Source: a virus (Duplodnaviria; Heunggongvirae; Uroviricota; Caudoviricetes). Taken from it: DNA of 39,156 nucleotides. The DNA lies in IMG/VR virus record IMGVR_UViG_2695420487_000015. The stretch is one strand, 5' to 3'. Below, piece by piece: positions 35,968 through 36,271 of the stretch. Position numbers and translations under genes: made by a program. Every line of letters starts with the position of its first letter. Within the stretch, counting starts at the first letter, position 1. Under the pieces are notes generated by a model, which was not told where the DNA came from, made no database searches, and was given only the letters and a program-made list of their open reading frames with translations.

Positions 35968-36271
35968 CAGCGTTACGGTGCACCACGCCTGACTGAAGAA
36001 CTGCGTGCTCAGGGTTACCACTTCAACGTAAAACCGTGGCAGGAGGTCCGGACTGAAAAAACTGGTCAGGACATCATCGGCAGGGAACGCACTGCTAGTC
36101 TGTAAACTGAACCGACTGGGGCGCAGTATGTGGCATCTTGTCGTGCTGTTGGAGGAGCTGTGCGAACGTGGTATTAACTTTCGTGCTCTGGCCCAATCTA
36201 TATTTGCCCAACAATGGGGGGACGAATGCTGTAAAAGTAAAACAATCTGCGATCTCAAAGTTATTGTGTGA
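35968..36271 (+). pseudogene. Serine recombinase (Hin/Gin/Pin-type DNA invertase) fragment, pinH-like
   Basis: Plus-strand translation [36 protein letters not shown] matches the invertase core as recalled for Hin ([36 protein letters not shown]). No catalytic N-terminus found; frameshifted. Confidence 0.6.

What the first reader, a model, noticed from the sequence alone, without database searches (positions are those of the whole stretch)
35968..36271. Degraded DNA-invertase (serine recombinase) fragment between the prophage and the autotransporter
The translated fragment retains the conserved invertase core but lacks the catalytic N-terminus and is frameshifted. Together with the AT-rich sequence from 33578 to 36600, it suggests an older mobile element decayed at this tRNA site before or alongside the P2-like prophage (tandem occupation of the hotspot).
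Basis: partly seen in the sequence, partly recalled or inferred. Interest (0 to 1): 0.3.

Follow-up and report, generated by a model that had tools for sequence, protein, structure and literature searches.

The report
Known dead invertase gene remnant (pinH)
This is the already catalogued E. coli pseudogene pinH: a 56-codon scrap of a DNA-invertase gene joined to a scrap of an IS3 insertion sequence, carried in the same broken form by over half of complete E. coli genomes, with no sign of function, so it is ordinary.

Summary
The window is E. coli. Apart from a 31.9-kb P2-like prophage inserted in tRNA ileY, its backbone is 99.96% identical to K-12 MG1655 ileY-ypjC-ypjB-pinH-ypjA.

The finding is the annotated K-12 pseudogene pinH (b2648), which maps to window 36032-36271.

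- **Invertase similarity is real.** Window 36035-36202 matches PinE residues 39-94 at 70% identity, Gin residues 39-95 at E 5e-12, and Pfam Resolvase above its cut-off.
- **What is missing.** The catalytic-serine N-terminus, the E-helix and the DNA-binding domain are all absent.
- **It is not frameshifted here.** The left third of the reported interval is a different relic, from IS3. It holds the true IS3 left terminus (35949-35966, 18/18), then an internal deletion, then IS3 nt ~544-618 (35967-36040). A 3-nt junction links this to the invertase piece.
- **It is old.** Divergent E. coli lineages share the same break-points. About 3042 of 5426 complete genomes carry the relic, against 42 that carry this prophage junction. 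The relic therefore long predates the prophage.
- **Its origin cannot be assigned.** No older att copy, integrase, crossover sites or flanking inverted repeats were found. The segment lies between two convergent hotspots, ileY and ssrA, so it cannot be tied to ileY.

Verdict: already known and non-functional.

The parts
1598..1673 (+). tRNA-Ile2 (anticodon CAU) gene ileY. This is the intact copy, rebuilt at the left prophage junction (attL).
   Evidence: ARAGORN. One mismatch in 76 to K-12 ileY. K-12 annotation.
1677..33528 (.). P2-like (Peduovirus-type) prophage absent from K-12. It is bounded by a 49-bp direct repeat of the tRNA 3' part (1628-1676 and 33529-33577). It is context, not part of the relic.
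   Evidence: The K-12-like backbone aligns to 1-1676 and to 33529-39049, with a 49-bp overlap. Repeat extents. About 76% DNA identity to P2-like phages over 54% of the query. Tyrosine integrase at 30803-31810.
34325..35698 (+). ypjC (34325-34807, DUF5507) and ypjB (34907-35698, DUF5508). They are the two halves of a split ypjCB gene and are the left neighbours of the relic.
   Evidence: Pfam. K-12 and PGAP annotation. An intact 484-aa ypjCB exists in another strain.
35949..35966 (+). True left terminus (IRL, nt 1-18) of an IS3 element.
   Evidence: 18/18 identical to the first 18 nt of a complete IS3 (L007:971-2228).
35967..36040 (+). Internal piece of IS3 orfB (IS3 nt ~544-618; OrfB ...[22 protein letters not shown]). 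It is joined to the terminus by a ~525-bp internal deletion between the imperfect repeats TTACCCAGCAATA and TTACCCGGTCAAA. It contains an in-frame stop and a 1-bp deletion.
   Evidence: 88.6% DNA identity to IS3. 21/26 aa identical to IS3 OrfB. Weak Pfam HTH_21 hit.
36041..36043 (.). 3-nt junction (AGG) between the IS3 relic and the invertase relic.
   Evidence: IS3 homology ends at 36040 and pinE DNA homology begins at 36044. The junction is the same in five divergent strains.
36044..36202 (+). Invertase (serine recombinase) relic. It corresponds to PinE residues ~39-94 and Gin 39-95, in a single frame with no start codon. The protein-level match starts at 36035.
   Evidence: PGAP annotates 36035-36202 as an 'incomplete recombinase family protein' (mapped).
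36203..36271 (+). Tail of the K-12 'pinH' feature (b2648 = window 36032-36271), running to the first stop codon. It has no detectable homology to invertases or to anything else.
   Evidence: K-12 coordinates mapped through the alignment. No hits.
36611..39049 (+). 5' part of the ypjA/ehaD autotransporter gene, the right neighbour of the relic. In this strain it is interrupted after 39049 by an IS1203/IS629 end (39050-39156).
   Evidence: Annotation. Divergence from K-12 after 39049. IS1203/IS629 match at 98-99%.

Best explanation
The feature is the E. coli pseudogene pinH. It is a composite, non-functional relic made of two unrelated mobile-DNA genes.

**Inferred history.**
1. A Pin/Hin-type DNA-invertase gene, of the kind carried by phages such as e14 and Fels-2-like P2 relatives, once lay in the accessory DNA between ileY and ypjA.
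2. An IS3 element inserted to its left, with its left end at 35949.
3. One deletion inside IS3, between short imperfect repeats, removed IS3 nt ~19-543.
4. A second deletion fused IS3 nt 618 to codon ~39 of the invertase. This removed the rest of IS3 and the invertase 5' end, including the catalytic serine.
5. A further loss removed everything after codon ~94.

This happened once, before the divergence of the E. coli lineages compared here (up to 13% DNA divergence within the relic). The scar has since been inherited vertically and has drifted neutrally.

It encodes no recombinase activity and plays no part in the much later integration of the P2-like prophage at ileY.

**Shown:** identity with pinH, the anatomy and break-points, the missing domains, the shared junctions, and the relative age compared with the prophage.

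**Inferred:** the order of the events, the type of source element, and neutrality.
For: **Identity with pinH.**
- The backbone is 99.96% identical to K-12 over 5521 bp. b2648 pinH maps to 36032-36271.
- PGAP labels the same spot an incomplete recombinase pseudogene in many genomes.

**Invertase homology limited to residues 39-94.**
- Shown: - No N-terminal or C-terminal pieces appear in any frame.

**IS3 parts and nucleotide-level junctions.**

**Same architecture in divergent strains.**
- The relic is 87-96% identical between lineages.
- One lineage carries an extra 1-bp deletion, as expected for a decaying pseudogene.
- The relic's divergence is no lower than that of the flanking non-coding DNA.

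**Frequency.** The relic is present in ~3042 of 5426 complete genomes. This prophage junction is present in 42 of 5426.

**Dispensability.**
- The whole segment is absent from REL606, where an IS1 element lies at the break; PMC3032704 attributes the loss of this tRNA in strains B and W to IS-mediated deletions.
- It was deliberately deleted in the genome-reduced strain DGF-298 (PMC10652928).

**No recombination sites or inverted repeats.**
Against: - No intact parent gene was found at this locus in any genome examined, so the source element is inferred only from 68-70% protein similarity to PinE and to P2-like phage invertases.
- The order of the deletions cannot be proved.
- Neutrality rests on five sequences and on per-segment identities, not on a formal test.
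- Expression of the short ORFs (for example 36128-36271, 47 aa) was not tested.
Confidence: 0.9

Rival explanations
1. The relic comes from an element that entered through the ssrA (tmRNA) hotspot, not through ileY. Older ssrA islands are pushed away from ssrA by each newer integration, so ypjA-pinH-ypjCB could be the far end of an old ssrA array. This rivals only the 'decayed at this tRNA site' part of the interpretation.
For: In K-12 and ATCC 8739 the only DNA between the 3' end of ssrA and the 3' end of ileY is a prophage or satellite plus ypjA-pinH-ypjCB. The two genes face each other. No ileY att remnant marks an ileY-side boundary.
Against: No ssrA att remnant was found in the window either. 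The window ends inside ypjA, so the ssrA-side boundary was inspected only in other strains.
Confidence: 0.35
2. The relic is retained because it does something. It could be part of the upstream regulatory DNA of the ypjA/ehaD adhesin gene, the remains of an invertase-driven phase switch for that adhesin, or the source of a small protein.
For: It lies ~400 bp upstream of an adhesin gene and is present in more than half of E. coli. Short ORFs from it are deposited as 'recombinase family protein'.
Against: - No crossover-site-like half-sites or inverted repeats lie near it.
- Promoter-like sites are at chance level and lie on the opposite strand.
- Its divergence equals that of the neighbouring non-coding DNA, and one lineage has a frameshift.
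- The catalytic and DNA-binding parts are absent.
- The region is dispensable.
Confidence: 0.04
3. The fragment belongs to the adjacent P2-like prophage or was generated by it, for example as a tail-fibre invertase left outside attR.
For: Some P2-like phages (Fels-2, SEN8 and others) carry invertases ~68% identical to the fragment.
Against: The relic lies 2.4 kb outside attR. It is present with the same junctions in K-12 and ~3000 genomes that lack this prophage. The prophage itself has no invertase gene.
Confidence: 0.01

Closest known systems
pinH (b2648), pseudogene of E. coli K-12 MG1655
   Same: It is the same locus, the same neighbours (ypjB on one side, ypjA on the other) and the same sequence. 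There are at most 2 mismatches in 5521 bp of backbone. The relic region is 100% identical to the K-12-like strain ER1709.
   Different: Nothing differs in the relic itself. In this strain a P2-like prophage occupies ileY 2.4 kb to the left, and an IS1203/IS629 element interrupts ypjA to the right. The K-12 feature (36032-36271) does not include the IS3 terminus and orfB piece at 35949-36040 described here.
PinE of cryptic prophage e14, and the Gin/Hin/Cin/Fin DNA-invertase subfamily of serine recombinases
   Same: Residues 39-94 align without gaps. Identity is 70% to a PinE allele, ~68% to Fels-2/SEN8-type phage invertases, and ~54% to Gin by my count from the alignment. The two arginines of the (D/N)RLGRS motif are kept.
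   Different: It lacks residues 1-38 (catalytic serine), the E-helix and the C-terminal HTH. It has no start codon, no crossover sites and no invertible segment. The motif aspartate is replaced by asparagine (NRLGR).
IS3 (IS3 family insertion sequence, 1258 bp)
   Same: The left terminal 18 nt are identical. An orfB piece is 88.6% identical in DNA.
   Different: Only ~92 of 1258 bp remain. There is no orfA, no DDE catalytic region, no right inverted repeat, and no target duplication that can be identified.

Membership tests
Serine recombinase, DNA-invertase subfamily (Hin/Gin/Cin/Pin) | Sequence match to the resolvase/invertase N-terminal catalytic domain (Pfam PF00239) | tested here: met
   37.6 bits against a cut-off of 23.3, but only profile positions 48-103 of 145 are covered. 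Gin residues 39-95 match at E 4.7e-12.
Serine recombinase, DNA-invertase subfamily (Hin/Gin/Cin/Pin) | Catalytic serine nucleophile near residue 9-10 in the N-terminal motif | tested here: not met
   No sequence corresponding to residues 1-38 appears in any frame of 35600-36700. IS3 DNA lies immediately upstream.
Serine recombinase, DNA-invertase subfamily (Hin/Gin/Cin/Pin) | E-helix and C-terminal helix-turn-helix DNA-binding domain | tested here: not met
   Homology stops at residue ~94 (window 36202). No HTH_7 or other Pfam hit appears downstream in six frames.
Serine recombinase, DNA-invertase subfamily (Hin/Gin/Cin/Pin) | Pair of inverted crossover sites (hix/gix-type) flanking an invertible segment | tested here: not met
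   A half-site search with up to 2 mismatches gave 7 hits in the window against 4.8 expected, none within 33.5-36.7 kb. There are no credible inverted repeats around the relic. The half-site consensus was taken from memory.
Serine recombinase, DNA-invertase subfamily (Hin/Gin/Cin/Pin) | Complete open reading frame of ~180-200 codons | tested here: not met
   Only 56 homologous codons remain. They are preceded by a stop codon and have no start codon.
IS3 family insertion sequence | Terminal inverted repeats at both ends | tested here: not met
   The left terminus is present, 18/18. No right terminus occurs anywhere in 33578-36700.
IS3 family insertion sequence | orfA/orfB transposase with a DDE catalytic domain | tested here: not met
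   Only ~25 codons of the orfB N-terminal HTH_21 region remain, with an in-frame stop.
tRNA-integrated genomic island or decayed prophage at ileY | Direct repeat of the tRNA 3' end at the distal boundary, and an integrase gene or remnant | tested here: not met
   Only chance matches of 10 nt or fewer occur to the right in the window and in K-12 up to the end of CP4-57. No integrase-like relic occurs in 33578-34330 or 35699-36610. Age and decay could have erased both.

The most novel reading that the evidence does not exclude
The relic is not pure junk. Either its DNA has been co-opted as part of the upstream control region of the ypjA/ehaD adhesin gene, or it marks a lost invertase-driven phase-variation switch for that adhesin. 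That would explain why the same scar persists in over half of E. coli.
Probability: 0.03. Interest if true: 0.3.

Novelty: already known. Interest (0 to 1): 0.06.

Why it matters
It matters little.

The finding re-discovers an annotated K-12 pseudogene.

The useful by-products are these:
- A nucleotide-level dissection shows that 'pinH' is a chimera of an IS3 terminus, an IS3 orfB scrap and an invertase scrap. Short ORFs from it that are deposited as 'recombinase family protein' are therefore probably annotation artefacts.
- The relic is a stable, ancient marker of the accessory segment between ileY and ssrA. It long predates the sporadic P2-like prophage at ileY.
- 'Tandem occupation' of ileY cannot be demonstrated, because the segment lies between two facing hotspots.

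Tried and rejected
1. **Hidden N- or C-terminal invertase pieces in other frames.** A low-stringency tblastn with PinE and a six-frame Pfam scan of 35699-36610 found none. An apparent 'ISKLL' resemblance to the Hin C-terminus, seen by eye, was not supported.
2. **hix/gix-like crossover half-sites.** Hits were at chance level and none lay near the relic.
3. **Flanking inverted or direct repeats.** Only short, low-identity chance pairs were found.
4. **An older ileY att copy to the right.** None was found in the window or in K-12.
5. **An ssrA att copy.** None was found.
6. **Relics in the 750-bp spacer between attR and ypjC.** No Pfam hit in six frames.
7. **A close, intact parent invertase.** The protein database search returned only the same E. 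coli fragments of 48-97 aa. The best intact relative is a pinE allele at 85% DNA identity over 147 bp.
8. **ypjCB relatives in other species, to find an intact ancestral element.** Only E. coli and Shigella loci turned up, plus one 2.8-kb metagenome-assembled contig deposited under a Planococcaceae label.
9. **Rfam and promoter/terminator scans of the region.** They found only the partial tRNA copy and one hairpin after ypjB.
10. **The prophage as the source of the fragment.** It has no invertase gene.
11. **Literature on pinH.** It appears only in gene lists.

Full report
**Where the window comes from**

ARAGORN finds one tRNA, at 1598-1673, with anticodon CAT. A megablast of 35700-36620 against complete E. 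coli genomes gives 100% matches. These are annotated 'recombinase family protein (incomplete)', a hypothetical protein, and ypjA (adhesin-like autotransporter YpjA/EhaD).

The K-12 MG1655 record shows the gene order ileY, ypjC, ypjB, pinH (b2648, pseudogene), ypjA. Local BLAST shows that the K-12 backbone aligns to window 1-1676 and to 33529-39049 at 99.96% identity, with a 49-bp overlap. The window is therefore this K-12 locus with a 31.9-kb insert.

Through that alignment, K-12 pinH (2783065-2783304, minus strand) maps to window 36032-36271. The PGAP pseudogene maps to 36035-36202.

**Checking the observation**

The three forward frames show two different similarities.

The first is the invertase. 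One frame reads [56 protein letters not shown].
- It matches Pfam Resolvase PF00239 at 37.6 bits, above the 23.3 cut-off, covering profile positions 48-103 of 145.
- It matches the solved Gin invertase at residues 39-95, E 4.7e-12.
- It matches an e14-type PinE at residues 39-94, with 39 of 56 identical.
- It is the only invertase-like sequence in the window.

The second is IS3. A different frame reads [22 protein letters not shown]. This is IS3 OrfB (21/26 identical, with an in-frame stop). In DNA it is 88.6-90.9% identical to IS3.

A low-stringency tblastn and six-frame Pfam scans found no further invertase pieces: no N-terminus, no E-helix and no HTH domain.

It is wrong on three points:
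- The fragment also lacks its C-terminal half.
- It is not frameshifted in this strain.
- The left third of the stated interval belongs to a different gene relic.

**Anatomy at nucleotide level**

The reference is a complete 1258-bp IS3 (L007:971-2228).

| Window coordinates | What it is | Evidence |
|---|---|---|
| 35949-35966 | IS3 nt 1-18, the true left terminal repeat (18/18) | |
| 35967-36040 | IS3 nt ~544-618 | |
| 36041-36043 | 3-nt junction | |
| 36044-36190 | 85% identical to pinE nt 124-270 | |
| up to 36202 | end of the protein-level invertase match | |
| 36203-36271 | no homology | |

The two IS3 pieces are joined across the imperfect repeats TTACCCAGCAATA and TTACCCGGTCAAA. There is no IS3 right end.

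The simplest history is an inference:
1. IS3 inserted to the left of a Pin-type invertase gene.
2. An internal IS3 deletion occurred between the short repeats.
3. A deletion fused IS3 nt 618 to invertase codon ~39.
4. Everything after codon ~94 was lost.

**Age and distribution**

A 196-bp query across the relic is covered at 80% or more in 3042 of 5426 complete E. coli genomes, at 89-100% identity. It is always annotated as an incomplete recombinase.

The three most divergent carriers inspected have the same gene order and a fragment of the same size. An alignment of five strains shows identical junctions. One lineage has an extra 1-bp deletion inside the invertase piece.

Per-segment identities between lineages:

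| Segment | Identity between lineages |
|---|---|
| Invertase relic | 87-96% |
| IS3 relic | 91-96% |
| Neighbouring spacers | 88-98% |
| ypjC | 85-89% |

The relic is no more conserved than its surroundings, so there is no sign of constraint.

The segment is dispensable:
- It is absent from REL606, where an IS1 element lies at the break; PMC3032704 attributes the loss of this tRNA in strains B and W to IS-mediated deletions.
- It was removed in the genome-reduced strain DGF-298 (PMC10652928).

**Relation to the prophage and the 'tandem occupation' idea**

The insert at 1677-33528 is P2-like. It has ~76% DNA identity to Peduovirus-type phages over 54% of the query and a tyrosine integrase at 30803-31810. 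It is bounded by a 49-bp repeat of the tRNA 3' part.

Its junction with the island occurs in only 42 of 5426 genomes. The relic therefore long predates it. The prophage carries no invertase.

The DNA from attR to ypjA is AT-rich at 32-44% G+C. ypjCB was found only in E. coli and Shigella among species representatives. An old, horizontally acquired origin is therefore plausible.

Several things are missing, however:
- No older ileY att copy.
- No ssrA att copy.
- No integrase remnant.
- No hix-like sites.
- No flanking inverted repeats.

In K-12 and ATCC 8739 the segment ypjA-pinH-ypjCB is all that lies between the facing 3' ends of ssrA (with its own prophage or satellite) and ileY. It cannot be attributed to one hotspot rather than the other.

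**Mechanism**

There is none now. The relic lacks the serine nucleophile, the dimer/tetramer E-helix, the DNA-binding domain, a start codon and any substrate sites. The best explanation is a neutral scar (confidence 0.9).

**Comparison with what is known, and novelty**

This is pinH itself, so it is already known. Functionally characterised relatives are intact enzymes with substrates, which this is not. They include PinE, the more distant PinQ/PinR (38% identical to PinE), and Gin and Cin (PMC12529663).

The only increment here is the dissection of the chimera, and the point that the 48-97-aa 'recombinase family proteins' deposited from it are probably annotation artefacts. Interest is low.

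Noticed in passing
window 39050-39156: The last 107 bases of the window are the end of an IS3-family element (IS1203/IS629, 98-99% identity). It is inserted in ypjA after 39049, where K-12 ypjA continues with different sequence. The autotransporter gene is therefore disrupted about 2.4 kb into its 4.6 kb in this strain.
   Followed up: yes
window 34325-35698: ypjC (DUF5507) and ypjB (DUF5508) are the two halves of one gene, ypjCB. It is split here as in K-12, but is an intact 484-aa ORF in other lineages (for example L003:3202-4656). Among species representatives it was found only in E. coli and Shigella. ypjC is the most divergent segment of the locus, at 85-89% identity between lineages.
   Followed up: partly
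window 1664 versus 33565: The rebuilt ileY at the left prophage junction has G where K-12 ileY and the displaced attR copy have A. This turns the U6-A67 acceptor-stem pair into a U-G wobble, and the change lies in the att-repeat part of the tRNA. Strain 3150 has the same G although no prophage lies between its ileY and ypjCB.
   Followed up: partly
L003:2370-2445 and L005:2368-2443 versus window 1598-1673: ileY alleles in two divergent E. coli lineages carry paired changes in the anticodon stem (GGCGA/TCGCT becomes GACGA/TCGTC). This is unusual variation for a tRNA gene within one species.
   Followed up: no
window 12699-14769, 23953-25170 and 31821-33317: AT-rich cargo patches lie inside the P2-like prophage. 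One holds an 8xMP membrane protein (PF24838) next to a DUF4238 protein. One holds an acyltransferase_3 family protein. One holds a 498-aa ORF between the integrase and attR, with no Pfam or PADLOC hit (phrog_37220, unknown function). These could be lysogenic-conversion or defence genes.
   Followed up: partly
window 1-1676 and 33578-39049, compared with L003-L005: The whole neighbourhood from the ygaQ flank and ileY through ypjCB to ypjA differs by 4-14% between E. coli lineages. From general knowledge, that is well above typical divergence of the core genome.
   Followed up: partly
window 35819-35846: A 10-bp G+C-rich hairpin lies about 120 bp after the ypjB stop. It scores as a terminator on the minus strand.
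   Followed up: no
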